This document shows, one piece after another, positions 1-46,944 of a DNA stretch of 64,000 nucleotides. The DNA is from an uncultured Muribaculaceae bacterium. Lineage in GTDB: Bacteria > Pseudomonadota > Alphaproteobacteria > Rs-D84. The stretch lies in the NCBI GenBank assembly GCA_964619545.1, contig CAZUED010000003.1, positions 163 to 64,162 of the forward strand, given 5' to 3'. The position numbers were made by a program, and so were the translations under genes. The stretch's first letter is position 1. Each line of letters opens with the position of its first letter. The notes beneath the pieces are model-generated. The model had not been told where the DNA came from and ran no database searches. It saw only the letters and a program-made list of their open reading frames with translations.

Positions 1-124
1 TTCGTTCTGGTGATTATTGAGCACCAGCCACCCTCTGATCCATTCCGAACCAGACAGGGAAACGATGTATCGCCGATGGTACTTTGGCTTAAGCCACGGA
101 AGAGTAGGTCGTCGCCAGAACGAA
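1..124 (+). rRNA. rrf: 5S rRNA (distal gene of an rRNA operon lying upstream of the window)
   Basis: nt 1-12 (ttcgttctggtg) pair with 113-124 (cgccagaacgaa) as helix I; conserved 5S strings ccattccgaac and cgccgatggtac...agagtaggtcg present; intrinsic terminator follows. Confidence 0.85.
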
Positions 125-187: not shown

Positions 188-474
188 TCCGATGTCATTC
201 CTATCACAATAGTTATAAATTTTAGTTATAATTTTTACATGGTTCAAAATAATCCGGACTTAAATTTTCCAAATTATACGGCACAGAATATGCCGCCAAA
301 AAATCCATGTGAAACCTGTTTGTTTTGGGGAATCACATGTAATCAATTAATATGCTCGAATTTCCAAAAATATAAAGAAGATACGAAAAAATTTGCGCTG
401 AGCAATGAAATTTCTCCCTTTAACAATTTATATTGATGTGATATAATCAGATGAAAGTAGAGAAGGGGTTTTTT

Positions 475-2460: not shown

Positions 2461-4704
2461 ATGAATAAAAATTCCAGATTTTGCAAAAAGTTTGGTGCAT
2501 GTTTATCTATGCCTTATGCTGTTTTTTTGATGTTCTGCATGGGTATAGCTGATGCAGCTGAAGTAAGTCGTGCACTTCCCGGAAAACAAGTTGCTATTTC
2601 AACGACATTCCAAAATCAGATACAATCCGAAGATGAAGTACCGGTGATAGAGCCCGGACAAGTTTCTGTACCCATATCGGTTTCACGTACGGCAGCATTG
2701 CCTGCACAAAGAAGTCAAAATGAAATAAGATCACGCACAGCGGCGACAGCTGTTCCACGCGATGCACTGAATGAAGCTGCGCGCCAAGTTGGACGCAGCG
2801 CCAAGGCCGAGGCAGCAAGTATGAATGCAACGGCACCAGTTCGTCGTGCGGGGATTTCTTTACGTCCGACAGCTGCCGAGGTTGGCGGCCGTGCAGCAGT
2901 TGTTACAGCTGGTACAACTACAGCTTCAAGTGTCAGCGCGGCAAGTCGTAGATTAACTTCACGTGCTGCAACTACAGGTCCCGATACAGCTGGGATTGAC
3001 GATACAATAGCTGTGACGGAATCATGCCAAGCGCAATATACCGACTGCATGGATCAGTTCTGCGCTGTCATTGATGCCAACCAAAAAAGATGCAGCTGCA
3101 GTAATCGTCTTTCTTCTTATTCGCGTGTAGAAACATCTGTAAAAGAAGCAAACAATCAGCTGAATGACGTCGCACAACGCATACGCTATGTGGGATTGTC
3201 TGCGGATGAAATTAGTGCGATTATGAGCGCGACCGAGGCTGAGATTGCATTACAAAATACCCGTGATACAACAGAATCACGGAATATGCTGGATGAAATT
3301 GAAAATCTTATTCGTTCGCCGGAAAATGTTGTTGCGCAAAGTTCTTCATCAACGATTGATTTGGACTTGAGTTTTGATGCAGAGGCTGATCCCATGGAGT
3401 TGTTTAATCTTTCCGGATCATCAACAGGGTCATTTTCTAATTTGCGTGGAACGGATTTGCTAAATGCCGCAAAAAAACGTTGCCAATCTGTGCTGACATC
3501 ATGCAAAGCCAAAGGTGCAAACGTCAATCAAATTACAGGTCGGTATGAAATAGAGATAGATAAAGACTGCATAACATATGAAAAAGGTCTGGAAAAGATG
3601 AATCAGACCTTGCGCACAAATGTTCGCAGTGCAACACAAATGTTGCAAAAGGCAAGACTTGCTGTGCTTGAAAATCATAACTCTTACGACGCCAAGGGTT
3701 GTGTTGGTGCTTTGGAACAATGCATGCACGACGAAATGGTTTGCGGAAGCGACTATTCTAAATGCCTTGATCCGACTAAACGCTTTATAGACGAAAGCGG
3801 AAAAGTAGTTTTGGGTCAAAATATTTCCATGATAAGAAACATTATGGCGAATTTTGATAATTCTATAATAGACGAGTCGTTTATAGGTTCAGCATGGGCA
3901 ATGTCGGGAATGTCTGGTTGTGATCAGGCACCAAATAATAATGGCAAATGCATTGTGAAGTATTTGTTGGGAAAAATCGGAATGGGCGAAGATAGCAGCT
4001 CTGGTTTGTGTCGCCCGGTTTTAGACAAGTGTCAAAAACAAACGTATGATGGCCGCGGCAAATATAATCCGAAAAACGCAATAGTCGTGGGCTATATACA
4101 GCGCGCAATGACTAATATTCGTGCTGCCCAGGAAAATATAATTTCAGATTACGCATCGACATGTATGGCGGAAATTGCAACTTGCTATTCCAAGCAGGTT
4201 ACGCAAATCAATGCATGGTCATCAAATGCCAACGTTCAGAATGTGTATTCAGTTCTGAAAGGCGCATGTCGTAATGTTGCACTGACATGCAGCTATGCGG
4301 TTTTCTCGGCCGACCAAACTGTGAATGGTTGCCCAATAACCAGCAATGATATGGCTGGAACCGATGGTGATAGGCAAAGCAAATGTATAGAAAACATTTC
4401 GGATATATTCTATCAATCAATGTTGTGTCCAGATTATTCGACATGGGTCCCGGCACAGACAGGTGCTATCGCAGGCACTATGTATCCTTATTCGCCCGAT
4501 ACACCGATCAGAGTGCATGTTAACGAGCGCTGTGTATGCCAATCAGGATATGGCGTAAATGCGGGTAGTTGTGAACAATGCCCGACCGGATACGCATTCA
4601 ATGCAAATTGCACTTATGCCAGTGCATCCCAAGGTTGTCCGATTATAGGATGCGGTTGCCCAGCGGGTACGACTTGGAATACGACTGCATCTGCGTGCCA
4701 ATAA
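2461..4704 (+). CDS. secreted cysteine-rich protein P2, paralogue of P1, with a C-terminal furin/ephrin-receptor-like Cys-rich tail
   Basis: 747-aa ORF with signal peptide (...FLMFCMGIADA/AEV); shares CQAQYTDCMDQFC...KRCSCSNR with CLESYYACMDEIC...RRCACAGR of P1; exact start uncertain. Confidence 0.8.
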   Translation: MNKNSRFCKKFGACLSMPYAVFLMFCMGIADAAEVSRALPGKQVAISTTFQNQIQSEDEVPVIEPGQVSVPISVSRTAALPAQRSQNEIRSRTAATAVPRDALNEAARQVGRSAKAEAASMNATAPVRRAGISLRPTAAEVGGRAAVVTAGTTTASSVSAASRRLTSRAATTGPDTAGIDDTIAVTESCQAQYTDCMDQFCAVIDANQKRCSCSNRLSSYSRVETSVKEANNQLNDVAQRIRYVGLSADEISAIMSATEAEIALQNTRDTTESRNMLDEIENLIRSPENVVAQSSSSTIDLDLSFDAEADPMELFNLSGSSTGSFSNLRGTDLLNAAKKRCQSVLTSCKAKGANVNQITGRYEIEIDKDCITYEKGLEKMNQTLRTNVRSATQMLQKARLAVLENHNSYDAKGCVGALEQCMHDEMVCGSDYSKCLDPTKRFIDESGKVVLGQNISMIRNIMANFDNSIIDESFIGSAWAMSGMSGCDQAPNNNGKCIVKYLLGKIGMGEDSSSGLCRPVLDKCQKQTYDGRGKYNPKNAIVVGYIQRAMTNIRAAQENIISDYASTCMAEIATCYSKQVTQINAWSSNANVQNVYSVLKGACRNVALTCSYAVFSADQTVNGCPITSNDMAGTDGDRQSKCIENISDIFYQSMLCPDYSTWVPAQTGAIAGTMYPYSPDTPIRVHVNERCVCQSGYGVNAGSCEQCPTGYAFNANCTYASASQGCPIIGCGCPAGTTWNTTASACQ

Positions 4705-6318: not shown

Positions 6319-6777
6319 ATGAGAGAGCAATGCGGACGCAGCCTGATTGAAATGCTTGGAGTGCTGGCCATCGCAGGTGTTATGACCGCTGGTGCAATTG
6401 CTATGTATAACATTGTGCGCACCCGACAGATTCGGATGGTGGCGACCCAAGATATGAAAACAATCGCAAATAATACAAAGCTGTTGTATGCCGCGCGCCG
6501 TGATTATACCGGCATATCCGCAGATTATTTGGTTAAGGCTGGCGCAATGCGCAATGAAAAATCTCCTTTGGCTGGCGCTCAGTTTTCTATTTCTGCAAGT
6601 CCAGGCCCCAAGGAATTCGCAATGGTTTTTGCAGAATTAAATTTTAATGATTGCTCTTGGCTTGCGACGCAGAATTTTGATTGGGCGGACAGAATTAGTG
6701 TGAATGGGTATTTTGAGTCCGCATCGACTTATTGTCGTCAGATGGATAAAAATGAAGTTGCGGTTTGGGTGAAATAA
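6319..6777 (+). CDS. type IV pilin / pseudopilin-like protein
   Basis: N-terminus MREQCG/RSLIEMLGVLAIAGVMTAGAIAMY has a short leader, Gly(-1), Glu(+5) and a hydrophobic alpha1-N; C-terminal Cys pair (DCSW...TYC) fits a pilin D-region; strong SD aaggagag. Confidence 0.7.
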   Translation: MREQCGRSLIEMLGVLAIAGVMTAGAIAMYNIVRTRQIRMVATQDMKTIANNTKLLYAARRDYTGISADYLVKAGAMRNEKSPLAGAQFSISASPGPKEFAMVFAELNFNDCSWLATQNFDWADRISVNGYFESASTYCRQMDKNEVAVWVK

Positions 6778-8316: not shown

Positions 8317-8403
8317 ATATAAAAATGTTTTGTAAAAAACTTTGATTTTGTTGATTTTGCCTTTCTACTTTTGCCTTTTGTTTTTTTGTGTTATAATTCA
8401 CCT

Positions 8404-9147
8404 ATGAAAAAGTTTTTTGCTTCATTGTTTGTTATTAGTTTTTCATTGCTGTTCATGGCGCCTGTGCGTGCATCAGATGCCCCGGATTTCAAGATTTACG
8501 AAGACGTTTCCATAAATAATCAGCCAAAATCCATGCCAGAAATAGAGGAATTATTTCTTAATCCCCGTGCCCAGACAGAAAATCTTTGGGCTGCCGGAAA
8601 AAATTCAATGTTAGAAATTTCTTATACTGGTTGCCCATTTCATACAATTCGTGAATGCCTGATTTGGAAGCGTAAACCAGTAATAATGGAAACAATCCCA
8701 TTGCCAACGCGGCATATTAAAAAAACTGATGATTATCAAACCGCATTGGTAAAAAGGTACGAGGCTCTGATGCAGGCAGCCAGATCTTGTTGCACTGCCG
8801 GCATGGAGAACAAGTTGATAAATTCTGGCGCATCCGCTGGTTTGATTTATAAATTTATGGTTGATGATGCAAACTTTTACGGATTTGGGGATAGATGCTT
8901 GATGATAACAGATGAAGAACTGCAAGAAAACTATTCTGGGACTGCAACCGCAAGGGCGGTGATGGGTGTTCGTGATACATGCCTGTGTCAGCGGCGGGAT
9001 TATTTTGATGCACTACTGGCGCCATTTGACGATTTTCCAGACGAAGAGTATAATTATACTTATCAAGATGGATTGAAGCGCGAGGTAAATGTTTCAATCA
9101 GCAATGATGTACGTGCAGTCAAAGAAATTTTGACACGCTGCCTATAA
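8404..9147 (+). CDS. secreted Cys-containing hypothetical protein
   Basis: ORF 8371-9147; ATG at 8404 gives MKKFFASLFVISFSLLFMAPVRA/SDAP signal peptide; several Cys pairs (SCCTAG, CLCQRR); no family recognised. Confidence 0.65.
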   Translation: MKKFFASLFVISFSLLFMAPVRASDAPDFKIYEDVSINNQPKSMPEIEELFLNPRAQTENLWAAGKNSMLEISYTGCPFHTIRECLIWKRKPVIMETIPLPTRHIKKTDDYQTALVKRYEALMQAARSCCTAGMENKLINSGASAGLIYKFMVDDANFYGFGDRCLMITDEELQENYSGTATARAVMGVRDTCLCQRRDYFDALLAPFDDFPDEEYNYTYQDGLKREVNVSISNDVRAVKEILTRCL

Positions 9148-10265: not shown

Positions 10266-10690
10266 TGGTAGATACAAAGGGTGTAGAAGCTGTAATTCCA
10301 CATCGCGGCAATATGAGATTGGTGGATGAAATTCGCGAATTTAATGAAATCAGTGGTGTTGGTATAAAACATGTCAGGGATGATGAATTTTGGTGTGCCG
10401 GACATTTTCCCGGAAATCCGATAATGCCTGGTGTTTTACAGGTCGAGGCCTTGGCGCAAACTGCATGCTTTATTGTGTTCAAGCAAATGGGTGCAACAGG
10501 TAAGGACACTTTGGGCTATTTTACCACTATGGAAAAAATCAGATTTTCGCACATGGTAAAACCTGGCGATACGCTTGAATTGCATGTAGAAATTTTGGCA
10601 AAAAAATTAAACATGTATAAATTTCATGGAATTGCAATGGTTGGCGGGAAAAAAGTTTCCGAGGCTACATTTTCCGCAATCATGAATTAA
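10262..10690 (+). CDS. fabZ: 3-hydroxyacyl-ACP dehydratase
   Basis: IPHRGNMRLVD and HFPGNPIMPGVLQVEALAQ signature. Confidence 0.95.
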   Translation: MMVDTKGVEAVIPHRGNMRLVDEIREFNEISGVGIKHVRDDEFWCAGHFPGNPIMPGVLQVEALAQTACFIVFKQMGATGKDTLGYFTTMEKIRFSHMVKPGDTLELHVEILAKKLNMYKFHGIAMVGGKKVSEATFSAIMN

Positions 10691-11072
10691 AATCGCTGTA
10701 CGTGCCTTTATCGGCAGTTAAATACTTGTATAAAGCATCGGGCGTCCATATAAATGGCGCCCGAATTTTTAATACGTGTTTTGCGAAAGAAACACAGGTT
10801 ATGTTAGAGCATAAGTTATAGGGCATAACGCATAGATATTTTTTACCTTGTGCCTTATGCTCTAAAAACACCCATCCATTTTGTTCCAGGATTTTTAGGT
10901 CGCGGGTTTGCAGCAGTATAAAGTTTATTTTCCCTGAACCGACTTGTATCATAGTGTATCTATGTCTTATGCCTTTAGCCTTATGCTCTAAAACGATTGC
11001 GCAGTGTCGAAATTTTCGGCAAAAAATGCGTGGCATTATTTTCCTGGTATTATTTGTAAATCCGATAAGCAT
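10680..11072 (-). CDS. hypothetical protein with an internal duplicated (A/W)xxLEHKAxG segment
   Basis: 130-aa ORF convergent with fabZ (11-nt overlap); no family recognised; coding status uncertain. Confidence 0.35.
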   Translation of the reverse strand: MLIGFTNNTRKIMPRIFCRKFRHCAIVLEHKAKGIRHRYTMIQVGSGKINFILLQTRDLKILEQNGWVFLEHKAQGKKYLCVMPYNLCSNITCVSFAKHVLKIRAPFIWTPDALYKYLTADKGTYSDFNS

Positions 11073-11205
11073 GAAAATCTCCGATTTTTATTTAATTTTC
11101 AAAGTGCAATTGTGGTGTCGGCTTCACCGACAACCTATAAATAATTATTTTACCTGTGAGCAACGCGAACACATTAATTGCACATTGCACTTTGCTAATT
11201 GCTCA

Positions 11206-11601
11206 TTAGTTTTCCAGCCATCCTTTGATTTTTGCAGCTTGCGCGATAGTTTGCATTGCATCATTCCACAGGGCAGCTTTGGCATTTTCTGACCATTCAT
11301 GCTGATGTGGAGCGCGCCGCAAGTCTCCAAATTCTTTCAAGACTTCCAGTTGTTTGGGCGTTAGCTTGCCGGCCAGGTAAAGCCGAGTGATAAGAGTTTC
11401 AACATCAATAGCTTCACAAGGATATGGATTTCGTGCCACTGGTCTTCCGATACGCATACGCGCAATGCTGGCAGATGAAAGCGCATCCTTTTGTCGGCAA
11501 GTTAAAAACCAAAACCACATTTGATCGGCGTCTTGAAATTTTCTTTCTGGTGCGTCAAAAGCCGTAGAAGGTATATTTTTTTGTTTTAAGTTGGCGTTCA
11601 T
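11206..11601 (-). CDS. hypothetical protein, possible DNA-binding (LTPKQLEVLKEFG helix)
   Basis: ORF 11206-11616; second ATG at 11601 has a ggagag SD; no confident family assignment. Confidence 0.5.
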   Translation of the reverse strand: MNANLKQKNIPSTAFDAPERKFQDADQMWFWFLTCRQKDALSSASIARMRIGRPVARNPYPCEAIDVETLITRLYLAGKLTPKQLEVLKEFGDLRRAPHQHEWSENAKAALWNDAMQTIAQAAKIKGWLEN

Positions 11602-11739
11602 TTTTTCTCTCTCCATTTTACCCCGTATAATTACTGGGTATGCATTCCTACACTAAAAATAATTGAATTATATCAAATGATACAACTACAAATAGATACT
11701 GCGGTTAGGTTTCTGACATTTTTTGTTTTTTGATAAATT

Positions 11740-11764
11740 AAAAAAATTCGCCACTTGGGCGAAT
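11740..11764 (-). terminator. rho-independent terminator ending the virB8-9-10-P3 operon
   Basis: attcgcc-loop-ggcgaat hairpin followed on the minus strand by a T-run, 27 nt past the P3 stop codon. Confidence 0.7.
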
Positions 11765-11790
11765 CGGAGAATTGTAAATACTAAATAAAA

Positions 11791-13938
11791 TTATCTATCT
11801 TGACCGATTTTGGTAGATGTTCCGGATTTCAGGTTGTCATTGGCTATACGAAGTTGTACTTGGTATGCGTTTATACAATCTGTCATACTGGAATTAGTCA
11901 TAGAATCGCCACATTTTTCAAATTGAGATTCAGATAATTTCAATGTTGTTGACATTCCTTTCAGCAAGTCAGAATCAAATTTAAGCTGCTTTCTGGCATC
12001 TGTTTTATTTGATGCGGAACGTATTACGCTCAAGTTGTTATTCAAGCAAGAAATCATATCTGATGTGCTGTAAACCTCATTACAATCACGAGCACCATTT
12101 AATCTTACATTACCTTTAGAAGATTTGCTTGCACTAGTAGAAGAATCATCAGTAGTATCGCCGCCAGCGGCCTGTAATTTTGATACCAGAATGGATTTCT
12201 CCATCTGAGTCTTTAACCGCTTCATAGTAACGTCCAAAAAGTCATACTGACGTTTCATCTGTTGAGTAATAATTGTCGTTTTCAATGCGATTGTATCCGC
12301 CATCATTTGTTTGTCAGCGGCCGAGGTTGGATTTTTTGTACTTCCAATGTTATAAGCATGGGTGCTGCACAAAGCGATGGCTGAATTGATATAATCATTT
12401 CCGCTGTCTTCTTTGCACCCGTTATCAGCTGTGCCAATGGAAAGAATTGCGTCCAGATTGTTGTTTTTGACACACAGATTGCGATCTGGCAAACGTCTTA
12501 GCTGTGCCAAATTACTTATAACAGCTAACTGATCAGAATTTGTTGCACACCATTTTATTGCGTCGGCTGCAGATTCTTCGCCGCGAATTACACTTGGTGC
12601 GTCCTGGGCAATTATTCTGCGCAAAGTTTCTATATCAATCGTCGATTGCTTTTTGCGATTTTTAAATAACACGGAATTATCAATTGCGTCAGATGCACAT
12701 GCAACGCGAATCCCGCCAGAACTGCCCGCATCCATATCCAGCCAGTTTTGTTGAATGTCCTCTTGATTATTTAACATCTTTAACAAAGTGCAATGGGGCT
12801 GTTGAGATTTTACTCGGCGGTTCCCCTGAGCATCATTTTCGTATGCTATAGGCCAGTATCCGCGGCCGGTTTTTGTATCATAATCGCAAGTTATGCTTGT
12901 CTTATCATCAATTTTTTCAGTTTGATTTTGAGAACATGTCTCGCACATATATTGCCCCCAGACATTGCAAGAGCCATTCAGCATCATGTAAATATCTGTT
13001 ATATCAACGCCCAAAGATTGCGCTAAAACCAACGCATCATACAACTCGTCCAAAACTGCATCATACGGATCAAAGAATTTATTTGCCTTATCCTTGAACG
13101 CTTTGACTCGCCGAGGACCCTGGCAATTATTTCCATTAGAATCACAACGCGCATAATCAAAAACATTTTGCATTGTGTTTTTTAAATCTTTCATCGCAAC
13201 ATCAGAATTTTCAAGCTGGGTCAGTATTTGACCACCAATTTGTTCGCGTGCCAAAACATCTGCCGATACACCCGCATTGACTGCATTAGTAATTGTTTTA
13301 TCGGGTGCTGATGCGCTTGCTGCTTGGGCCGCGGCCTGTGCTTGCTGGGCCGCCAGTTGTTTTTGCTCTTCCAATGCTTGCTGAACAGCCGCGGCGGATT
13401 GAGCAGATTGTTCTTGCATCTGTTGCTGCATCTGCATCATCTGCGCTTGCATTTGTTCTATCTGAGTGTTTGATTGCGCCGCTGCTGCATTTGCAGCCTG
13501 CGTTGTTGCAGCATTTTGCGCCTCGGTTGCTTTTGCAATAGCGGCACTTACCATCTGTGCCGCCAATGTTTGGATTAAATCGTCACCATATTGCTCGCAC
13601 GAAGGATTACTTTTCACGCAACCTTTCACAATCGGAAGCGCCAATTCCATGGTTGTGCAGCCCGCGCACTTTGGCTGGGCGCAACGCAAAATAAGTGAAT
13701 TACAATTTCCAAAATCTGCAACCGGCCTTTGTTGCCCCAGTGGATTAGGGTTTATCGCGGCATTCCACTGATTGTTGTTCAATGCGCCGGCACTGCCGGT
13801 AAATACAGTTCTGTTACCTGAAATTCCGCCAGAATTTGCAAAAGAAGGCCCTGGTCCGCCGATAGGACTGTCGCCATAGGCAGTCCCCAGTGCAAAGCAG
13901 GCGGTACAAACAGATAAAAATCTGATTAAAATCTTCAT
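11791..13938 (-). CDS. secreted cysteine-rich coiled-coil protein P3 (Q/A-rich helix, many Cys pairs)
   Basis: ORF 11791-13998; ATG at 13938 gives MKILIRFLSVCTACFALGTAYG/DSP signal peptide with an agagaga SD; Q/A-rich stretch AQNAATTQAANAAAAQSNTQIEQMQAQMMQMQQQMQEQ; co-directional with and 67 nt after virB10. Confidence 0.8.
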   Translation of the reverse strand: MKILIRFLSVCTACFALGTAYGDSPIGGPGPSFANSGGISGNRTVFTGSAGALNNNQWNAAINPNPLGQQRPVADFGNCNSLILRCAQPKCAGCTTMELALPIVKGCVKSNPSCEQYGDDLIQTLAAQMVSAAIAKATEAQNAATTQAANAAAAQSNTQIEQMQAQMMQMQQQMQEQSAQSAAAVQQALEEQKQLAAQQAQAAAQAASASAPDKTITNAVNAGVSADVLAREQIGGQILTQLENSDVAMKDLKNTMQNVFDYARCDSNGNNCQGPRRVKAFKDKANKFFDPYDAVLDELYDALVLAQSLGVDITDIYMMLNGSCNVWGQYMCETCSQNQTEKIDDKTSITCDYDTKTGRGYWPIAYENDAQGNRRVKSQQPHCTLLKMLNNQEDIQQNWLDMDAGSSGGIRVACASDAIDNSVLFKNRKKQSTIDIETLRRIIAQDAPSVIRGEESAADAIKWCATNSDQLAVISNLAQLRRLPDRNLCVKNNNLDAILSIGTADNGCKEDSGNDYINSAIALCSTHAYNIGSTKNPTSAADKQMMADTIALKTTIITQQMKRQYDFLDVTMKRLKTQMEKSILVSKLQAAGGDTTDDSSTSASKSSKGNVRLNGARDCNEVYSTSDMISCLNNNLSVIRSASNKTDARKQLKFDSDLLKGMSTTLKLSESQFEKCGDSMTNSSMTDCINAYQVQLRIANDNLKSGTSTKIGQDR

Positions 13939-14005
13939 ATTCTCTCTTGAAGCAAGTTTATCATAAAATGCGAGGAAATGCAAGCCTCCCTTTAACAAGT
14001 GGAAG

Positions 14006-16300
14006 CTAAATTATTGGGGGAAAGCAATCACCGCCAGCTGCTGGACAGCAGTTGAATCCTTGGCTACCCATGTCTGTATAAACCTCGCCCGTGCAACAGC
14101 CGTTTAAGTCTGGCGATGTACCATCTTCGCAGGTCAGTGCCGTCGTGGTGGTGGTTGCGGGTGGTGTTTCTTTGGCAAATGGATTTTTTATTGTACCGTC
14201 CGCATTGTATTGCAGGCCCAAAACTTGCTCGTTATATTCTTTTGTTCCCTTAGTTAATTGCTGGCCATTGGTTCCGACAATACCGGTTTGCTGCTGGTTA
14301 TTCCAAATAGCCTGCTGTTGGGCATTATTTATCGCTTGATACTGAATTGCTTTACAATATGCAACAACGGTACGATAGTCATAGCCAGCCTCGGAAATAG
14401 TTTGTGCTGTTACACCCGCACTCAGCTGTCCATTAGTGCCGCAGTATTTCTGTATATCAAATCCGCGAACTTGTCCAACCCATGATGCATCATCATAATT
14501 TGGTATGGCTTCGGACGCTTTATGAGAAACATATTGCGAAGGAGTCAAATTGCAATTTTCAAGCCCATTCACCTTGTCGCAGAAGTTCACAATTAAATCC
14601 TTTGGCGAATAAACCGTTATGCGCGTACCAGCGGCAATAGAAAATGGAGGAACCGTGTTGTCCAGCATATCAACCATTAATTTTTGCGCAACTCTGTTCC
14701 ATGTTGAAATAATTTCATTTTTTGCCAGCTCGGACGAGCGAACTTGACCACTTTGTGTAACCGTATTGTTATCCAGATCAATTTGATTTACGAACTTGTC
14801 TGAAATTGGCGCAATCAAATTAACAGCGGCAGGCACAACTGCCGTTATCATCGGCATTATGAATTGCTCCATATAATCTGTGCTGCCGTGACCTGGAACG
14901 CCAACGCGACCTTGGCTGTCGCCAGCAAAGGGCTCGTCCCCGGCAAAGCTGAATTCAACTCCGTCCGGTCTAACAAAGCGATACCATTTGATTTGCATAC
15001 GACCGATGGCTTTATACGGACCCGGCATTTCACCAGTCAAATAACCCAACATCAATGTTCCGGTCGGAATTATTATAGTGCGTCCGTTATCAGAATAGAC
15101 ATGTCTATCAACTGTTGCCTGAACTGGCAACATGGATTGACGCTCTATCTTTGCATCTGCACGTATTTCATTTACGATTGTCGCAGGAATAGGCTTGTAC
15201 TGGCGCAGAACAAAAGTGCGGTCATAGGGCTCGGTCGATATAAATGCATCGCCCGCAGATGAAGGTACCAGGTTACTTTCTGGTTTATATGCAAATGCTG
15301 GATTTATCTCTGACAAACGTTTTGCACCACCCGCAGCTCTGGGTAATTCTGCCGCTGCTGCATTTACTTGTCTTGCTCGATTTTGTACGCGTGCGTTCGC
15401 CGGATTGGACAATACAGGAACATTCGCGCTTGATGCAATAAATCCGATTCGATCAAAGTCAGAGCCTATTTTTCTGCTGGGATTTTTAAGATCGGTAATA
15501 AATCCGGTATCCAAATTATATTCACCCAGTGGGCTGGTGCAGTCCAAGTCAGAAAAAGGATGAAAAAGATAATGTCCACCTTGGGGACGTATCCATCCGA
15601 TTTGCTTTCCATATGCGTCATAGCCGCCGAATGCAAATTCATAGCAGCGCTCGGTATTTAATGCTGCTGTAGTTACTGGCGCAGGCAAATTTTCTGTTGC
15701 AAATTTTGGCGCAAGGGTTTCGACCGCCTCGGCCACAGGATTAATTTCAGGGGCAGTCAAAACAGGTTCTGGTTCTGGCAATTGCACTGGTTTTTGTGGT
15801 TCTACTTTTTTTGTAGATAAAGCAACAGGAATTTCAGCAGTTTGTGCCATTTTGGCCTCGGCACTGGCGGGGTAATACTCAATAAGTACTTTAATGCCGG
15901 TTGGTTCCAAGTCTGCAGCAGGCGTCCAAGTTAATTCTGCACTGCAAGGAATGCCAAGTGTAATTTCGCCCATATTTGTACAGGTGGTATCTATGCTTAA
16001 TCCATCAATTTTTTGGGATAGTTTTACGCTGGGAATCATTGCGACTGCATTCGAAGAAATTTTAATAGTCTGTGTCTGTTTTTCGCCAACTGGAATGTTT
16101 TGCCATGCGATCTCAGATGGATCCATGGTCAGCTCCAGAACTGGTTTTGATTCGGACTTTGGTTTATCCTTGGAATCGCGACCCATCAGAATAACCAGCA
16201 AAACAACGACTACCAAAAAAGCAGCGAACATCACGATCCACAGCACATGCCGTGGCATGGACTTTTTTACATCGCTGATAGTGGTTGTTATCATCGCCAA
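14006..16300 (-). CDS. virB10: VirB10/TrbI-family T4SS core protein with a ~190-aa Cys-rich C-terminal extension
   Basis: N-terminal TM (VLWIVMFAAFLVVVVLLVILM), Pro-rich linker (VQLPEPEPVLTAPEINP) and TrbI-type domain (LPVQATVDRHVYSDNGRTIIIPTGTLMLGY...GDSQGRVGVPGH...PPFSIAAGTRITVYSPKDL); TTG start with aggag SD. Confidence 0.85.
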   Translation of the reverse strand: MAMITTTISDVKKSMPRHVLWIVMFAAFLVVVVLLVILMGRDSKDKPKSESKPVLELTMDPSEIAWQNIPVGEKQTQTIKISSNAVAMIPSVKLSQKIDGLSIDTTCTNMGEITLGIPCSAELTWTPAADLEPTGIKVLIEYYPASAEAKMAQTAEIPVALSTKKVEPQKPVQLPEPEPVLTAPEINPVAEAVETLAPKFATENLPAPVTTAALNTERCYEFAFGGYDAYGKQIGWIRPQGGHYLFHPFSDLDCTSPLGEYNLDTGFITDLKNPSRKIGSDFDRIGFIASSANVPVLSNPANARVQNRARQVNAAAAELPRAAGGAKRLSEINPAFAYKPESNLVPSSAGDAFISTEPYDRTFVLRQYKPIPATIVNEIRADAKIERQSMLPVQATVDRHVYSDNGRTIIIPTGTLMLGYLTGEMPGPYKAIGRMQIKWYRFVRPDGVEFSFAGDEPFAGDSQGRVGVPGHGSTDYMEQFIMPMITAVVPAAVNLIAPISDKFVNQIDLDNNTVTQSGQVRSSELAKNEIISTWNRVAQKLMVDMLDNTVPPFSIAAGTRITVYSPKDLIVNFCDKVNGLENCNLTPSQYVSHKASEAIPNYDDASWVGQVRGFDIQKYCGTNGQLSAGVTAQTISEAGYDYRTVVAYCKAIQYQAINNAQQQAIWNNQQQTGIVGTNGQQLTKGTKEYNEQVLGLQYNADGTIKNPFAKETPPATTTTTALTCEDGTSPDLNGCCTGEVYTDMGSQGFNCCPAAGGDCFPPII

Positions 16301-16321
16301 CGCAGACTCCTGAGCCTTTTA

Positions 16322-17797
16322 TTATTGAACTCTTACTACATTGCAAGCGGTCCCTTGGAACTTTGTCATTTTATCACAAAGCTTTTGTGCGCTTTCAATG
16401 TCCGACATGGGCCCAATACGCAGGCGATAAAGCCGCGCGGTTGCAGCGCCCGTACCCAGATCTCCAACTCCAGACTCGTCAACTGCGAAATAAACCATAT
16501 TACGATAAGGATTCAGCAGTCCTTGTCCATCATCACCACTGAATTTCGCCAGCAGCTTTGTCCAATAATCATTCAGTGCTTTGACAGAAGTATCGGATTT
16601 CAGCTCAACAGCGACACCTGCTTGATTAGAGGTTATAATTGGAATGTCGCTTTGCGGCAGGAACGAGCCCGCAGTATTGCGAACACTTGGCAGCATATTA
16701 ACGCCAGTCGCACCAGTTGATGCGCCATTTGTCGGCATTACCATCGGCGGTTGAAATCCATTAACCTGTTGGTCAGTGATTGGCTGCAACATTGCACCAG
16801 AATCAACCGGCATATTTCCATAACCAACATTTTGCAAGGATTGTGATGATTGCATGCTTTGCATAACGTTAGATTCAGCCAGTGCCATGACGCTGGAAGT
16901 GTCAGCAATCAAGAAGGGTTTTGCGCGACGCTTGATACAAACAATTCGCTGACCACTGCGCAATACCATATCCCCAACTGCTTCTACAATCAACAGGCGT
17001 CCGTTTTCACCATCAGTACGAAAACCGACTGGCGATTCACCACCTTCGACCAAGATAGAAACAACTGGTCTTTGAGTCATTGCGATAACCTTGTCGCCAA
17101 AATCAATATAGGTAAAGATTCTGTCGCGCCATACGCGTTCAGGCGCAATTACAAAGTCATCAGGATTCGGGACAAAAATGTCTAAATCAAAGCGGAACTC
17201 TGACGGATCAATTTTCATTGTTTTTATCCAGCCGTAATCTTCGCCGTCAACGCCCAAGGTAGAAGTTGAATTTTTCTTTGGGAAAATAGAGTTCATACCA
17301 GAAGTTTGACCAGCAGAAGAGCTGGTTGCATTTGGTATGCTAGAACGCCCATCCAGAACAACATCAACCTGGGAATAAGAAATTTCGCTGGAATTAGCAG
17401 GTTCGGAACGCAGATAGAATAAATATTTATTTCCTGATTTGCCAGTAATAATCAAATTTGTGTCGCTGCCCTGATTTGTTGCAACCGGTGTCATATAAAT
17501 TGTTCTGCCACCTTTTTGCGGATCCATTTGGAACAAACCTTCGTTACCAATGACGCCATCTTCGATAATTTCGCCTTCGGGCAAATTTATCATGGTTACC
17601 ATTCCATTACGCAAACGAATCGGAAGAACTGCGCCTGGCGCCCATGTCAGTTGGGCAAAGCCAGGTTTAGAACTGCCTGTGGCCATATTTGCCTCTGGGT
17701 TATCCCACGCATCCTGGACACCATAATCTTCGGCACTTGCCCCGCCAATACAAAAGGCAAAAATCAAAGGGCAAAGAGCAAATAATTTTATATTCAT
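16322..17797 (-). CDS. virB9: VirB9/TrbG/CagX-family T4SS core protein fused to a C-terminal SPOR-like domain
   Basis: signal peptide; VirB9 N-domain (VLPIRLRNGMVTMINLPEGEIIEDGVIGNEGLFQM...TNLIITGKSGNKYLFYLRS) and C-domain (ERVWRDRIFTYIDFGDK...LVLRSGQRIVCIKRR); SPOR-like tail (YRLRIGPMSDIESAQKLCDKM...CNVVRV). Confidence 0.85.
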   Translation of the reverse strand: MNIKLFALCPLIFAFCIGGASAEDYGVQDAWDNPEANMATGSSKPGFAQLTWAPGAVLPIRLRNGMVTMINLPEGEIIEDGVIGNEGLFQMDPQKGGRTIYMTPVATNQGSDTNLIITGKSGNKYLFYLRSEPANSSEISYSQVDVVLDGRSSIPNATSSSAGQTSGMNSIFPKKNSTSTLGVDGEDYGWIKTMKIDPSEFRFDLDIFVPNPDDFVIAPERVWRDRIFTYIDFGDKVIAMTQRPVVSILVEGGESPVGFRTDGENGRLLIVEAVGDMVLRSGQRIVCIKRRAKPFLIADTSSVMALAESNVMQSMQSSQSLQNVGYGNMPVDSGAMLQPITDQQVNGFQPPMVMPTNGASTGATGVNMLPSVRNTAGSFLPQSDIPIITSNQAGVAVELKSDTSVKALNDYWTKLLAKFSGDDGQGLLNPYRNMVYFAVDESGVGDLGTGAATARLYRLRIGPMSDIESAQKLCDKMTKFQGTACNVVRVQ

Positions 17798-17876
17798 TTC
17801 ACATCCTTCCTAATTTTTTTCTCAAGCGAATTCAGCTGTGACATTTGCCACTTGCCGTTTGCTATTTAAGTTTATG

Positions 17877-18530
17877 CTATTGCATAAAATCGAGCGGATC
17901 ACTTCCCCCTGATTCCACCCGGTATTCCGAGACTTGCAGCCCCAGCGGATTTTCCTGTCTGTTGCCCCATTTCAATTCTGGCGTGTAGGTCAATCCTATT
18001 ACAATAGTAAAATCTTTTGGCGGGGTATGTCCAGCGCTTTCTGATGTGCAAAACCATCTGAATTTTACAGCGAATTTATCACTTCCGCGTGGCTCAATTG
18101 CGGGCGATTGAAACTCTACAGGGCACGAAAACTGAACGTTCGGAGAATCCTGCATGAAAGCAGACCATAACTGAGTTGTTGCAAATCTGGCATAAACCTC
18201 TCTAGATGACCAGATATAAACTGGGCCGTCTGGGCTGCGCCACTTGTACCGCATGGTATTTACATTGGGTGTTATTTCGTTGCGCGCGCGAATATATTCC
18301 TTGATGAAGCTTTCCTTGTAATCGATCATAGTTTTGTTATTTACTGGCAGTTGTTGAATTTCGATTATTTGACCCTCGACACGGCGCGCATTCAGCAAGA
18401 AAACCTGGGTCCTATTCAATGGGAACATGTTAGAGACTGCGAAAATCATGGCCAAAGCAGTTGCAATTGCTGCGGCCAGCACGAAAGACATCATGCGCGC
18501 GGTAAAAGCATTGGGTGTGACAACTGCCAT
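17877..18530 (-). CDS. virB8: VirB8-family T4SS inner-membrane protein
   Basis: short N-tail, one TM (MMSFVLAAAIATALAMIFAV), periplasmic domain with FIKEYIRARNEI and terminal NPLGLQVSEYRV typical of the VirB8 fold. Confidence 0.75.
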   Translation of the reverse strand: MAVVTPNAFTARMMSFVLAAAIATALAMIFAVSNMFPLNRTQVFLLNARRVEGQIIEIQQLPVNNKTMIDYKESFIKEYIRARNEITPNVNTMRYKWRSPDGPVYIWSSREVYARFATTQLWSAFMQDSPNVQFSCPVEFQSPAIEPRGSDKFAVKFRWFCTSESAGHTPPKDFTIVIGLTYTPELKWGNRQENPLGLQVSEYRVESGGSDPLDFMQ

Positions 18531-18729
18531 TTTCTTCAGAATTCTCCCTTCTTTGCGCGATTGTAGTAAATTTCCAGATTACTATGCAAGGGAAAAGTTC
18601 AATTTTCAATTATCAAAGTGCAATTAACGTGTTCGCTGCGCTCACAATTAAATAATTATAAAAGCATCGGTGAATGCCGACACCACAATTGCTAATTGAA
18701 TTTTGTACATTGCACATTAAACTTTTCCC

Positions 18730-42958: not shown

Positions 42959-43057
42959 GAACTTTCCTTACTCCGGCAATTTTATATTGTCAAATGGCAA
43001 AAAACAAGTTCTTTTAATCCTTGAAAAGCAAACTATAAATTGCTAGATTGCACAGCG

Positions 43058-45582: not shown

Positions 45583-46275
45583 GTGAGCGTCATGGATTTT
45601 CCGGCAGATTATGATACAAAGATGTTTCCGGAAACACGCTACCTTGGGATGGCGCGGGCTTTTGCGATTTGGTCCGCGATTTTGTTTTTATTAATTGCTG
45701 GACTTTCTTGGGCATTGGTTTGGACGATGCGTGCCAGCAGGGTAGAACCTGTTTTGGTTTCAATTTCTGCCGATGGTGCAACTTGGACGGCAGTATTGGA
45801 CGGAACAGGTCGCTTAAATTATTCTGTATCGCGCGCAATGCAAGAGGCAACAGTCGGAAAATTCACAAAACTTTGGTTCAGTATTTCGCGTGATGCAAAA
45901 GAAAATGAATCTAACTGGTGTCAATGCGAACAAACAAAATGTTGGGATGACGATGCGGCTGCGCCGCAGTGCAAAGTTTGTTGCGCTTCGGGCACCAGTT
46001 TATTTTCTAATTTCTTACAAGTTGTGAATGGTGACTTTCGTGAGCGGGCCGCGGCCGGCGAAGAATGGTCGATTGTTTCTGATTCGATTCGTGCAACACC
46101 TGTGGGTGAAATCTCTGACAATGGTGGATTATGGCGTGTTACTGCCAGTGTGAAAATGGGCGCGGGTCGGACGCAAAAGATAGAGGCGTTTGCACGTATC
46201 ATCAAAGCATCCGAAGGCTATCCATCAACAATGGGTTATTATGTCGCAGATTTTCATGCATATCCCGGGGAATAA
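45583..46275 (+). CDS. VirB8-fold bitopic membrane protein with a Cys-rich insert
   Basis: N-tail, TM (FAIWSAILFLLIAGLSWALVW), RVEPVLVSISADG..., terminal EGYPSTMGYYVADFHAY resembling the VirB8 NPLGxxV motif; insert WCQCEQTKCWDDDAAAPQCKVCC. Confidence 0.6.
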   Translation: MSVMDFPADYDTKMFPETRYLGMARAFAIWSAILFLLIAGLSWALVWTMRASRVEPVLVSISADGATWTAVLDGTGRLNYSVSRAMQEATVGKFTKLWFSISRDAKENESNWCQCEQTKCWDDDAAAPQCKVCCASGTSLFSNFLQVVNGDFRERAAAGEEWSIVSDSIRATPVGEISDNGGLWRVTASVKMGAGRTQKIEAFARIIKASEGYPSTMGYYVADFHAYPGE

Positions 46276-46283
46276 AAAATTAA

Positions 46284-46934
46284 ATGAAAACACTAGTATC
46301 ATTTTTTTTCGGAATTATTTTGATGGCTTTGGTCTTGGCTATTGCACTAACGGGCGGCAAGTCATTTGATGCCAGTCGAAATTTTTCTATAAATTCTGTA
46401 ATTTTTCAGCCTGCGGATTTATCGCGAGATCGGATTGAAAAGCCAATACCACTGGATGTTTTATCAGACGAGTTTGTGCGCGACAGCCTGATAAAAAAAT
46501 TTGTGAACGAGTATTTTTACATAGCGCCAGATAGCTTTGATATGGCGCGTCGTAGAAGAACAGACAGCACACTTGCAAGAATGTCCGATCCCGCAGTATT
46601 TGATCAATGGAATGAAAAGTTTGCCGAAGATATGGAAAATCTGGCAGATCAAAATGTAATGCGTCGGGTTATTGTAAATAGCATTAATCTGCCAGCTAAC
46701 AGCGAGTATTTCCAAGTGTCATATGACTTGCTGACATGGGATGTTGCGAACGACATCACTCGTCAGCCATTAATCCAAAAAAACAAATCAATGTCTGTTC
46801 GATTGGATTTCGAAAAAGGGGTTCGGCAACAGCAAACAAACGGCGCACGTTTTGATGTAAAAAAATATTTGGTTGATGGTGGTGATCCTGCTACAATTTT
46901 CAGATTCCGAGTGTTGGAAGTAGTTGTGAAATAA
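46284..46934 (+). CDS. VirB8-fold bitopic membrane protein (second paralogue)
   Basis: N-terminal TM, SLIKKFVNEYFYI (compare FIKEYIRARNEI in 17877-18530), YFQVSYDLLTWDV, terminal DPATIFRFRVLEVVV. Confidence 0.55.
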   Translation: MKTLVSFFFGIILMALVLAIALTGGKSFDASRNFSINSVIFQPADLSRDRIEKPIPLDVLSDEFVRDSLIKKFVNEYFYIAPDSFDMARRRRTDSTLARMSDPAVFDQWNEKFAEDMENLADQNVMRRVIVNSINLPANSEYFQVSYDLLTWDVANDITRQPLIQKNKSMSVRLDFEKGVRQQQTNGARFDVKKYLVDGGDPATIFRFRVLEVVVK

Positions 46935-46944
46935 GGGATAAATA

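What the first reader, a model, noticed from the sequence alone, without database searches (positions are those of the whole stretch)
11791..18530. Stand-alone virB8-virB9-virB10 operon that ends in a 715-aa Cys-rich coiled-coil exoprotein instead of virB11/virD4
Seen: four co-directional ORFs are separated by only 79, 21 and 67 nt, and the only convincing terminator (11740-11764) follows the last one. The first three carry VirB8, VirB9 (both domains) and VirB10/TrbI hallmarks. The fourth has a signal peptide, a Q/A-rich coiled coil and many Cys pairs, and I do not recognise the family. No ORF in the 64 kb looks like VirB4, VirB11 or VirD4 (the only Walker-type proteins are DnaX, DnaB and terminase), like a polytopic VirB6, or like VirB2/3/5. 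Established: in P-type T4SS and in Rickettsiales rvh loci, virB8-9-10 is normally followed by virB11 and virD4. Inference: this is either a scattered T4SS whose core operon has gained a lineage-specific surface or substrate component, or an outer-membrane core complex re-used for something else, such as display of the Cys-rich proteins. This is my best candidate for an undescribed system.
Basis: partly seen in the sequence, partly recalled or inferred. Interest (0 to 1): 0.75.

Follow-up and report, generated by a model that had tools for sequence, protein, structure and literature searches.

The report
Scattered type IV secretion genes, gut symbiont
The three secretion-system genes are real, but they are one piece of a type IV secretion system scattered around the small genome of an uncultured gut alphaproteobacterium (order Rs-D84), and the cysteine-rich fourth gene sits beside them only in some relatives.

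Summary
Four co-directional minus-strand ORFs have gaps of 79, 21 and 67 nt. The first three pass Pfam thresholds for VirB8, VirB9/CagX and VirB10/TrbI, and a terminator follows the fourth. The window has no VirB4, VirB11 or VirD4.

The interpretation needs correcting.
- **Host lineage.** The window comes from order Rs-D84 (Candidatus Enterousia and relatives), gut bacteria with genomes under 1 Mb.
- **virB8-9-10.** This is a conserved chromosomal cluster across the order, next to secE-nusG. In the two distant relatives examined, two small ORFs follow it directly, not P3.
- **VirD4.** A solitary, highly conserved VirD4 (61-81% identity) is found across the order. It lies on the same contigs as virB8-9-10-P3 in the window's own subclade. 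In the closest long-contig relative it sits about 8 kb beyond the window's left edge, across an rRNA operon where the contig breaks.
- **Extra VirB8.** The window holds a second VirB8-like gene at 46284-46934.
- **P3.** This is a core, lineage-specific, Sec-exported Cys-rich protein with relatives in 250 species genomes and no known fold. Only 6 of 80 species loci place it after virB10. It is inverted in one close relative and lies elsewhere in the rest.

This is a Rickettsia-style scattered T4SS, not a stand-alone core. VirB4, VirB6 and VirB11 remain unlocated.

The parts
17877..18530 (-). virB8 homologue (217 aa). Bitopic protein with an N-terminal membrane helix and a periplasmic VirB8 domain.
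   Evidence: Pfam VirB8 6.6e-14, 52.7 bits against a cut-off of 23.2. Hydrophobic segment at aa 8-26. Orthologues show 44-84% identity in Rs-D84 loci.
16322..17797 (-). virB9 homologue (491 aa). Signal peptide, CagX/VirB9 domains (aa 49-290), a variable linker and a conserved SPOR-like C-terminal domain (about aa 385-491).
   Evidence: Pfam CagX 1.6e-21. SPOR 4.9e-4, at 20.8 bits against a cut-off of 21. PDB sequence hit to TrwF/VirB9. Identity is 70-93% across 10 orthologues, and the C-terminal module is nearly invariant.
14006..16300 (-). virB10 homologue (764 aa, about twice the canonical length). Membrane helix at aa 17-39, Ig/ASH-like domain 57-164, Pro-rich linker, small beta domain 224-290, and TrbI barrel 371-570 with two long 'antenna' helices (473-505, 521-548). 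The C-terminal extension ends in an invariant Cys-rich tail (aa 721-764).
   Evidence: Pfam TrbI 2.6e-18. NCBIfam VirB10 and ComB10 domain hits. The AF2 model matches CagY, Xanthomonas VirB10, TrwE, TraF and ComB10 by Foldseek at 3e-10 to 1e-6. 13 of 14 Cys are invariant or nearly so in 40 orthologues. Full-length homologues are 47-93% identical.
11791..13938 (-). P3 (715 aa). Sec-exported, Cys-rich (24 Cys), Q/A-rich coiled-coil protein of an uncharacterised lineage-specific family. It lies downstream of virB10 here but not in most relatives.
11745..11765 (-). Intrinsic-terminator-like hairpin plus T-run just after the P3 stop codon.
   Evidence: 8-bp stem, 4 GC pairs, tail TTTTTAATTT.
18581..18609 (-). 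Promoter-like site upstream of virB8, in the 343-nt spacer between tRNA-Trp and virB8.
   Evidence: TTGAAA-17-CATAGT, 9 of 12 matches. This is a consensus match only. No VirB7-like lipoprotein ORF lies in this spacer.
11206..11616 (-). s136, a small conserved ORF with no signal peptide. It follows virB10 directly in distant relatives and follows P3 here.
   Evidence: 49-51% identical ORF immediately after virB10 in L091 and L092. No convincing Pfam family.
10680..11072 (-). s130, the second small conserved ORF that travels with s136.
   Evidence: 35-38% identical ORF after s136 in L091 and L092. It is linked to P3-s136 in L009, L016 and L017.
46284..46934 (+). Second VirB8-like gene (216 aa, N-terminal membrane helix), in a three-gene cluster just after bamA.
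   Evidence: 12 of 76 family members hit Pfam VirB8, best E 9.6e-6. Profile-profile comparison with the Rs-D84 VirB8 family gives probability 85%, E 6.5e-6 over 196 columns. The cluster is conserved in a relative (L096).
45583..46275 (+). Possible third VirB8-like gene (230 aa, membrane helix, 6 Cys).
   Evidence: Pfam VirB8 E 5.3e-4, 20.3 bits against a cut-off of 23.2. hhalign of the Rs-D84 VirB8 family alignment against this single sequence found nothing, E 0.55. Inconclusive.

Best explanation
Window 14006-18530 encodes the VirB8-VirB9-VirB10 'islet' of a chromosomal, vertically inherited type IV secretion system. Its genes are dispersed around the reduced genome of an Rs-D84 alphaproteobacterium (Candidatus Enterousia and relatives).

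**Shown.**
- The three proteins belong to their families by sequence, and VirB10 also by fold.
- The cluster is conserved next to secE-nusG in relatives as distant as about 47% VirB10 identity.
- A solitary, very conserved coupling-protein gene (virD4) occurs across the order. In the window's subclade it lies on the same contigs, about 29 kb from the virB8-9-10-P3 cluster. It sits just across the rRNA operon at which this contig breaks.
- The window holds an extra VirB8-like paralogue.

**Inferred.**
- VirB8 nucleates assembly at the inner membrane.
- VirB9 and VirB10 form the periplasm-spanning outer-membrane core. The two VirB10 antenna helices line the outer-membrane pore.
- The SPOR-like VirB9 tail tethers the core to peptidoglycan.
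- VirD4, and presumably an unlocated VirB4, power substrate transfer to the partner cell that this auxotrophic bacterium depends on.

**P3.** P3 is a separate, Sec-exported, disulfide-rich envelope or surface protein. It is one of several lineage-specific Cys-rich exported proteins. Genome rearrangement placed its gene downstream of virB10 in a sub-lineage. In this window it is probably read through from the virB promoter (67-nt gap, no terminator), but it is not a conserved part of the operon.
For: - **Domain and fold membership:**
- **Lineage identity:**
- **virB8-9-10 conservation and context:**
- **VirD4, breadth:** Pfam 2.8e-51. More than 1700 homologues; the top 120 are 72-81% identical and sit on Rs-D84 contigs, including contigs that also carry P3.
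- **VirD4, same contigs as the operon:** L146 and L017 are the same 122,099-bp contig. L169 is a 355,004-bp contig, the same length as the longest contig recorded for P0010, the P3 homologue of a window-subclade relative.
- **Window boundary:** the window's left edge is collinear with L169 downstream of its 16S-23S-5S operon. virD4 lies about 3 kb upstream of the 16S gene.
- **VirB8 paralogue:**
- **P3 synteny:** virB10 lies upstream and co-directional in 6 of 80 species loci. It is absent within at least 5.6 kb upstream in 61 of 80, convergent in L009, and on a different contig of the same MAG in L018/L092.
- **P3's usual neighbours:** other Cys-rich exported proteins or lpxD-fabZ. A C258 homologue is present in 36 of 80 loci.
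- **Read-through in this window:** terminator only after P3.
Against: - No VirB4, VirB6, VirB11 or VirB2/3/5 was found in 2.78 Mb of fetched DNA, mostly Rs-D84 loci. Those loci cluster around three anchor genes and sample only about 236 conserved gene families, roughly a quarter of a genome. Completeness of the system is therefore unproven.
- VirD4 was shown in close relatives, not in the window's own MAG, because the contig ends at the rRNA operon.
- P3 lies co-directionally downstream of virB10 in two divergent lineages with different flanking genes (nusG side versus rpsL-rpsG side, with an extra OMP gene in L019). That would be an unlikely coincidence if the two origins were independent, and it hints at a functional tie.
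- There are no expression data.
Confidence: 0.7

Rival explanations
1. P3 is a true lineage-specific accessory of the T4SS. It could be a surface adhesin, a cap, or an outer-membrane-associated partner of the VirB9/VirB10 core, co-expressed with it. Its gene is free to move because both are constitutively expressed core genes.
For: - In this window P3 is co-directional with virB10, 67 nt downstream, with no intervening terminator.
- The same arrangement occurs in the window's subclade and in the divergent L019, with different flanks.
- P3 and virB10 are both near-universal in the order.
- VirB10 carries its own invariant Cys-rich tail that could disulfide-bond to Cys-rich partners.
- From general knowledge: Wolbachia co-transcribes the surface-protein gene wspB with virB8-D4.
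Against: - The genes are unlinked in 61-74 of 80 species loci, and P3 is inverted relative to virB10 in L009.
- The two distant relatives with no P3 nearby share the order virB10-s136-s130.
- P3 associates more often with lpxD-fabZ and with other Cys-rich exported proteins.
- P3 has no structural resemblance to any T4SS component.
- The B9+B10 tree allows a single origin of the adjacency.
Confidence: 0.15
2. The cluster is a ComB-like DNA-uptake system. VirB8/9/10 form an outer-membrane DNA import channel that feeds ComEC, as in Helicobacter, which would explain the absence of virB11 after virB10.
For: - VirB10 hits NCBIfam ComB10 (7.9e-13) and the ComB10 structure.
- No virB11 lies next to virB10 in any relative.
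- A ComEC gene is present in the lineage (L091).
- Pilin-like genes are present.
- These bacteria cannot make nucleotides (PMC12306168).
Against: - The hits to ComB10 are no better than those to VirB10, CagY and TraF.
- The lineage keeps a VirD4 coupling protein at 61-81% identity. From general knowledge, ComB systems lack VirD4, and it marks substrate export.
- ComB4, ComB6 and ComB2/3 equivalents were not found either.
Confidence: 0.08
3. The cluster is a stand-alone VirB8/9/10 envelope complex that works without T4SS ATPases. It would serve as a passive conduit or as a scaffold that displays the Cys-rich proteins.
For: - No VirB4, VirB11 or VirB6 was found in the window or in 2.78 Mb of fetched DNA, mostly related loci.
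- VirB9 and VirB10 carry unusual extra domains.
- Cys-rich exported proteins are abundant near by.
Against: - VirD4 is conserved and sits on the same contigs.
- Only about a quarter of the gene families of a genome were sampled.
- From general knowledge, no ATPase-free VirB8/9/10 system is known.
Confidence: 0.04

Closest known systems
Rickettsiales vir homologue (rvh) T4SS 'archipelago' (Gillespie et al. 2009, PMC2653234)
   Same: - A chromosomal, vertically inherited P-type-like T4SS in a reduced-genome, host-dependent alphaproteobacterium.
- Its genes are split into separated islets.
- VirB8 is duplicated.
- Non-vir genes sit inside or beside the islets (here).
   Different: - In Rickettsiales virB8-virB9-virB10-virB11-virD4 are contiguous. 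Here virD4 is solitary, about 29 kb away on the one contig where the distance was measured, and no virB11 follows virB10.
- VirB10 is about twice the usual length, with an Ig/ASH-like domain and a Cys-rich tail.
- VirB9 carries a SPOR-like domain.
- Counterparts of the virB3-virB4-virB6 islet were not located.
- Phylogenetic relationship to rvh was not tested.
Helicobacter pylori ComB DNA-uptake T4SS (comB6-10 and comB2-4)
   Same: - A virB8-9-10-type cluster without virB11 or virD4 beside it.
- VirB10 matches ComB10 in sequence and structure.
- ComEC is present in the lineage.
   Different: - The lineage has a strongly conserved VirD4, which ComB lacks (general knowledge).
- No ComB6/7-like genes were seen next to virB8.
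Wolbachia virB8-virB9-virB10-virB11-virD4-wspB operon (general knowledge, not checked in a paper here)
   Same: A gene for a surface or envelope protein lies directly downstream of, and is co-transcribed with, the T4SS core operon in a reduced alphaproteobacterial symbiont.
   Different: - wspB is an outer-membrane beta-barrel protein. P3 is a helical, coiled-coil, Cys-rich protein with no known fold.
- In Rs-D84 the adjacency is limited to a minority of lineages.
Chlamydial cysteine-rich outer-membrane complex (OmcA/OmcB), as an analogy for P3 and its Cys-rich neighbours (general knowledge)
   Same: Several Sec-exported, cysteine-rich envelope proteins in a reduced-genome, host-dependent Gram-negative bacterium.
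   Different: - No sequence or structural similarity was found.
- Rs-D84 genomes keep peptidoglycan synthesis genes.
- Disulfide cross-linking was not tested.

Membership tests
VirB8 (PF04335) | Profile match above the curated threshold | tested here: met
   52.7 bits against a cut-off of 23.2, covering aa 11-205 of 217.
VirB8 (PF04335) | Bitopic topology: short cytoplasmic N-terminus, one membrane helix, periplasmic NTF2-like domain | tested here: met
   A single hydrophobic segment at aa 8-26. Weak PDB sequence hits to Bartonella VirB8/TrwG periplasmic domains. The fold itself was not modelled.
VirB9 / CagX (PF03524) | Profile match above threshold covering both VirB9 domains, plus a signal peptide | tested here: met
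   77.5 bits against a cut-off of 34.2, aa 49-290 matching profile positions 5-197 of 198. N-terminal hydrophobic signal. TrwF C-terminal-domain hit.
SPOR domain (PF05036) on VirB9 | Profile match above the curated threshold | tested here: inconclusive
   20.8 bits against a cut-off of 21, and only the last 35 residues align. The C-terminal roughly 100 aa are nearly invariant in 11 orthologues.
VirB10 / TrbI (PF03743) | Profile match above threshold | tested here: met
   67 bits against a cut-off of 35, aa 365-569. NCBIfam T4SS_VirB10 domain 3.6e-16, which is below the equivalog cut-off.
VirB10 / TrbI (PF03743) | Beta-barrel C-terminal domain with a two-helix 'antenna', an N-terminal inner-membrane helix and a Pro-rich linker | tested here: met
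   The AF2 model shows the membrane helix at 17-39, a disordered Pro-rich stretch at 170-216, the barrel at 371-570 and helices at 473-505 and 521-548. Foldseek matches CagY, VirB10, TrwE and TraF at 3e-10 to 2e-7 with TM-score (target-normalised) about 0.56.
Complete P-type (VirB/D4) T4SS | VirD4 coupling ATPase in the genome | tested here: met
   Absent from the window. Present on the same contigs as virB8-9-10-P3 in the window's subclade (L146 with L017; L169) and across the order. Not shown for the window's own MAG.
Complete P-type (VirB/D4) T4SS | VirB4 ATPase (universal T4SS component) | tested here: inconclusive
   No hit in the window or in 2.78 Mb of fetched DNA, mostly related loci. 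Only about 236 gene families, roughly a quarter of a genome, were sampled. Whole genomes could not be fetched.
Complete P-type (VirB/D4) T4SS | VirB11, VirB6, VirB2/3/5, VirB7 | tested here: inconclusive
   None was found next to virB10, virD4 or P3 in 170 or so loci. No lipoprotein ORF lies upstream of virB8. Small or divergent components could escape a single-reference phmmer search.
Rickettsiales rvh-type scattered T4SS | Components split into separated chromosomal islets, with VirB8 duplication | tested here: met
   virB8-10 and virD4 lie about 29 kb apart on one contig. A VirB8-like paralogue lies 28 kb from virB8 in the window.
Rickettsiales rvh-type scattered T4SS | Contiguous virB8-virB9-virB10-virB11-virD4 islet; shared ancestry with rvh | tested here: not met
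   No virB11 or virD4 follows virB10 in any of about 15 loci. Phylogeny against rvh proteins was not done.
ComB DNA-uptake T4SS | No coupling protein (VirD4) and no VirB11; works with ComEC | tested here: not met
   VirD4 is conserved in the lineage. ComEC is present.
Any described family for P3 | Sequence or fold match to a curated family or a solved structure | tested here: not met

The most novel reading that the evidence does not exclude
P3, perhaps together with the other Cys-rich exported proteins of Rs-D84, is an undescribed extracellular partner of the T4SS. It would be a disulfide-linked surface structure that docks onto the invariant Cys-rich tail of the unusually long VirB10. It would mediate contact with the partner cell from which these auxotrophic gut bacteria draw their metabolites. 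Under this reading, the appearance of P3 downstream of virB10 in two divergent lineages reflects selection for co-expression.
Probability: 0.15. Interest if true: 0.65.

Novelty: new variant of a known kind. Interest (0 to 1): 0.42.

Why it matters
Rs-D84 (Candidatus Enterousia and relatives) is a widespread, uncultured group of gut bacteria in humans, ruminants, horses and termites. Their genomes are under 1 Mb. They lack biosynthetic pathways and standard transporters, so they are predicted to live off other cells (PMC12306168). That paper does not mention a secretion system, and how they exploit a partner is unknown.

A T4SS whose parts are among the best conserved proteins sampled (VirD4 61-81%, VirB9 about 70%) is an obvious candidate for the partner-interaction machine. 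It gives a concrete target for metatranscriptomics, imaging and effector prediction.

The modified core is a variation on T4SS architecture that structural biologists could test. It consists of a VirB9 with a SPOR-like tail and a double-length VirB10 with an Ig-like domain and a Cys-rich tail.

The P3 family and its Cys-rich neighbours are large, conserved protein families with no known fold or function.

There is also a methodological lesson. The apparent 'stand-alone' operon arose from a contig break at an rRNA operon.

Tried and rejected
- **Paralogy of P3 with other Cys-rich proteins.** BLASTP links only X662 and X747 to each other. P3 and C258 show no detectable similarity to them.
- **Search for VirB4/B6/B11/B2/B3/B5.** I ran phmmer with Sinorhizobium pRmeGR4a reference proteins against all ORFs of the window and about 175 related loci. 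Only VirB9, VirB10 and VirD4 were recovered. Whole Rs-D84 chromosomes could not be fetched, so this stays open.
- **Unknown conserved neighbours.** Pfam on neighbours of virD4, and on a conserved cluster of genes with no Pfam match seen in L005 and L094, found no T4SS families.
- **VirB7-like lipoprotein upstream of virB8.** None was found.
- **ORF 45583-46275 as a VirB8 paralogue.** There is only a sub-threshold Pfam hit, BLASTP against VirB8 finds nothing, and hhalign is negative. I left it as 'possible'.
- **Literature.** Searches for Rs-D84 and Enterousia found no description of a T4SS in this lineage.
- **Exact look-up of the window's VirB8.** It gave only a 1.7-kb Logan contig.
- **Polarity of the P3-virB10 adjacency.** The P3 tree and the VirB9+VirB10 tree do not settle whether it arose once or twice.


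Full report
**1.
Four minus-strand ORFs occupy 17877-18530 (217 aa), 16322-17797 (491 aa), 14006-16300 (764 aa) and 11791-13938 (715 aa). The 715-aa ORF starts at the ATG that homologues confirm as the true start. The gaps are 79, 21 and 67 nt.

The first three pass Pfam's curated thresholds for VirB8 (52.7 bits), CagX/VirB9 (77.5 bits) and TrbI/VirB10 (67 bits). A SPOR match at the VirB9 C-terminus falls just short, at 20.8 against 21 bits. NCBIfam agrees at domain level.

The fourth protein (P3) has no family in Pfam or NCBIfam, a signal peptide and 24 cysteines. A hairpin plus T-run at 11745-11765 follows P3, and nothing convincing separates virB10 from P3.

Pfam scans of the window's large ORFs found no VirB4, VirB11 or VirD4. 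A phmmer search with a reference virB1-11/virD4 set also found none, and no VirB6.

**2. What organism this is.**
P3 has more than 1200 homologues, all from uncultured Alphaproteobacteria or 'Rickettsiales' MAGs, some on contigs of 0.85-0.95 Mb. A scan of one genome per GTDB species found P3 relatives in 250 species. These include many named Candidatus Enterousia and one complete 716,531-bp chromosome.

Enterousia belongs to order Rs-D84. These gut bacteria have genomes under 1 Mb and lack amino-acid, nucleotide and lipid biosynthesis, respiration and standard transporters. They are predicted to be obligate symbionts or parasites of other cells (PMC12306168). That paper does not mention a secretion system, and no other paper found does so.

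**3. virB8-9-10 is a conserved chromosomal cluster, and P3 is not part of it in the distant relatives examined.**
VirB10 homologues of the same unusual length (about 740-830 aa) are 47-93% identical over the full length across the order. VirB9 is 70-93% identical in the orthologues aligned.

Two distant relatives show the same order: a Hadza-gut 885-kb contig (L091) and a Zodletone MAG (L092). It reads rpoB<-rplLJAK<-nusG<-secE | virB8>virB9>virB10>two small ORFs | <-yidC. The small ORFs are homologues of window ORFs s136 (11206-11616) and s130 (10680-11072).

In the window's subclade P3 sits between virB10 and s136 (L006-L008, L011-L013, L015, L017). In the close relative L009 the order is lpxD>fabZ>P3>s136>s130> <-virB10<-virB9<-virB8, so P3 converges on virB10.

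Counts over the 80 species-representative loci:
- 6 have virB10 upstream and co-directional.
- 61 have at least 5.6 kb of upstream sequence with no virB10.
- 13 are too short upstream to judge.

In one MAG, P3 (L018) and virB8-10 (L092) lie on different contigs. P3 is more often next to lpxD-fabZ (17-18 loci), a homologue of the Cys-rich ORF at 8371-9147 (36 loci), or the Cys-rich paralogues X662 and X747 (11-13 loci).

One caveat applies. The divergent L019 also has virB8>virB9>virB10>OMP>P3, but flanked by rpsL-rpsG and mltG-fabF. A P3 tree and a VirB9+VirB10 tree do not settle whether the adjacency arose once or twice.

**4. The system is scattered, not stand-alone.**
One P3 locus from a termite-gut relative (L032) carries a solitary VirD4 among housekeeping genes (T4SS-DNA_transf 2.8e-51). 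That protein has more than 1700 homologues. The best 120 are 72-81% identical, 721-760 aa long, and sit on Rs-D84 contigs, several of which also carry P3 (contig lengths 418380, 283484, 75140, 66728, 59309). One of these homologues (P0257) is encoded on the complete chromosome OZ246409.1, within about 20 kb of that genome's P3 gene.

A metagenome scan returned 80 further VirD4 loci. Two tie VirD4 to the window's subclade:
- **L146** is the same 122,099-bp contig as L017. virB8-P3 lies at about 23.9-31.7 kb and virD4 at about 60.6-62.8 kb.
- **L169** is a 355,004-bp contig. That matches the longest contig recorded for P0010, a P3 homologue 67% identical to the window's.

L169 reads yidC>(rsmE)<virD4>rluD ... 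16S-tRNA-23S-5S ... X662. Window bases 1-184 align at 90% to the 5S region of L169, and the window's first feature is a 5S rRNA at 6-120.

So in the nearest long-contig relative, virD4 lies about 3 kb upstream of the rRNA operon, roughly 8 kb left of window position 1. The window's contig evidently breaks at that operon.

The window also has a second VirB8-like gene (46284-46934):
- 12 of 76 family members hit Pfam VirB8, the only recurrent family.
- Profile-profile comparison with the Rs-D84 VirB8 family gives 85% probability, E 6.5e-6 over 196 columns.
- The neighbouring ORF 45583-46275 has a sub-threshold VirB8 hit.

**5. What was not found.**
VirB4, VirB6, VirB11 and VirB2/3/5 were absent from 2.78 Mb of fetched DNA, mostly Rs-D84 loci. 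No VirB7-like lipoprotein ORF lies upstream of virB8.

Those loci surround only three anchor genes. They sample about 236 conserved gene families out of roughly 820-960 genes per genome. Absence is therefore unproven, and whole chromosomes could not be fetched with these tools.

**6. Anatomy.**
The AF2 model of VirB10 has a mean pLDDT of 65, with well-predicted domains:
- an inner-membrane helix (17-39);
- an Ig/ASH-like domain (57-164);
- a disordered Pro-rich linker;
- a small beta domain (224-290);
- the TrbI barrel (371-570) with two long helices (473-505, 521-548) where the VirB10 antenna lies;
- a C-terminal extension ending in a small Cys-rich hairpin.

Its best structural matches are CagY, Xanthomonas VirB10, TrwE, TraF and ComB10, at E 3e-10 to 1e-6. 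Thirteen of 14 cysteines, including the tail pattern C-x10-CC-x14-CC-x6-C, are invariant or nearly so in 40 orthologues. The C-terminal roughly 100 residues of VirB9 are nearly invariant.

P3 models at pLDDT 74.5 as helical bundles, a long coiled coil and a beta-rich domain. It has no significant match in the PDB.

**7. Explanation.**
The best-supported reading (confidence about 0.7) is that 14006-18530 is the VirB8/9/10 islet of a scattered, vertically inherited T4SS.

The shown steps are:
- family and fold membership;
- conservation of the cluster across the order;
- a conserved VirD4 on the same contigs;
- VirB8 duplication.

The inferred steps are:
- assembly of an envelope-spanning channel energised by VirD4 and an unlocated VirB4;
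- peptidoglycan tethering by the VirB9 tail;
- use of the system to exploit a partner cell.

P3 is best read as a separate Cys-rich envelope or surface protein whose gene was moved next to virB10 in a sub-lineage. It is probably co-transcribed in this window.

The rivals are:
- P3 as a true T4SS accessory (about 0.15);
- a ComB-like DNA importer (about 0.08, weakened by VirD4);
- an ATPase-free re-used core (about 0.04).

**8. Comparison and novelty.**
The closest known system is the Rickettsiales rvh 'archipelago', with scattered islets and duplicated VirB8 (PMC2653234). Here virD4 is detached from the virB8-10 islet, no virB11 is adjacent, and VirB9 and VirB10 carry extra conserved modules.

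I classify this as a new variant of a known kind. The T4SS genes are already auto-annotated in GenBank records, but no paper found describes them for this lineage. The P3 family is uncharacterised.

Interest is moderate at 0.42. The 'undescribed stand-alone system' reading does not survive. What remains is a well-conserved T4SS in a widespread, biologically opaque gut symbiont lineage, which is a useful lead.

Noticed in passing
window 45583-47805 (+), just after bamA (43040-45364): A three-gene cluster of membrane-anchored proteins (230, 216 and 286 aa). The middle one is a divergent VirB8-like protein and the first may be one too. The cluster bamA-234aa-215aa-285aa-yraN is conserved in a relative at 42% identity (L096).
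   Followed up: yes
window 451-2439, 2461-4704, 8371-9147; L094 4207-7242; L002 5057-8164: A set of Sec-exported, cysteine-rich proteins with no Pfam family: X662 (22 Cys), X747 (35 Cys), C258 (9 Cys), and a 1011-1035-aa protein with 38-41 Cys in relatives. X662 and X747 are paralogues (E 1.5e-11) and share a C..Y..CMD..C......RC.C motif. A similar motif is visible in the 1011-aa protein. They are frequent neighbours of P3 and may form a disulfide-linked envelope layer.
   Followed up: partly
window 48820-59575 (-): T7-like phage structural genes are interleaved with dnaB (49727-51268) and an HTH regulator. They comprise capsid 57189-58004, scaffold 58877-59575, tail tube 56315-56842 and a terminase split into 48820-49656 and 53075-53731. 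A relative (L096) keeps portal, Mu-F-like and terminase genes beside dnaB in the same place. This suggests a conserved, possibly domesticated, phage-derived element in genomes under 1 Mb.
   Followed up: partly
window 6319-6777 (+); L005 10805-14691; L091 22050 onward: A 152-aa protein with a prepilin N-methylation motif sits between dnaX and ompA. Relatives have three 400-450-aa proteins with prepilin-like N-termini, and a ComEC gene. The lineage may also have a type IV filament or competence apparatus.
   Followed up: no
window 6-120 (+): A 5S rRNA is the first feature of the window. In the relative L169 a full 16S-tRNA-23S-5S operon precedes the X662 homologue, with virD4 about 3 kb upstream of the 16S gene. 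The MAG contig evidently breaks in the rRNA operon.
   Followed up: yes
window 10680-11616 (-): Two small conserved ORFs without signal peptides (s136, s130) directly follow virB10 in distant relatives but follow P3 here. They have no family and could be T4SS-associated cytoplasmic factors.
   Followed up: partly
window 36238-36744 (+): A 168-aa glutaredoxin/thioredoxin/DsbA-like protein (sub-threshold DSBA hit) with a hydrophobic C-terminus. It is a candidate oxidoreductase for the many Cys-rich exported proteins.
   Followed up: no
window 58312-58800 (-): A Lys/Ala-rich 162-aa ORF matches the chlamydial histone H1-like HC2 family (2.1e-21). It lies inside the phage-like region, and the match may reflect low-complexity sequence.
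   Followed up: no
loci L011-L014, L019, L023, L031, L088 (GenBank record titles): Several Rs-D84 MAGs are deposited under wrong names ('uncultured Muribaculaceae bacterium', 'Bacteroides fragilis'). One P3 and VirD4 homologue pair is labelled 'Lachnospiraceae bacterium'.
   Followed up: no
L019 7753-8514 (+): In the divergent relative that also has P3 after virB10, a 253-aa outer-membrane beta-barrel protein gene sits between virB10 and P3.
   Followed up: partly
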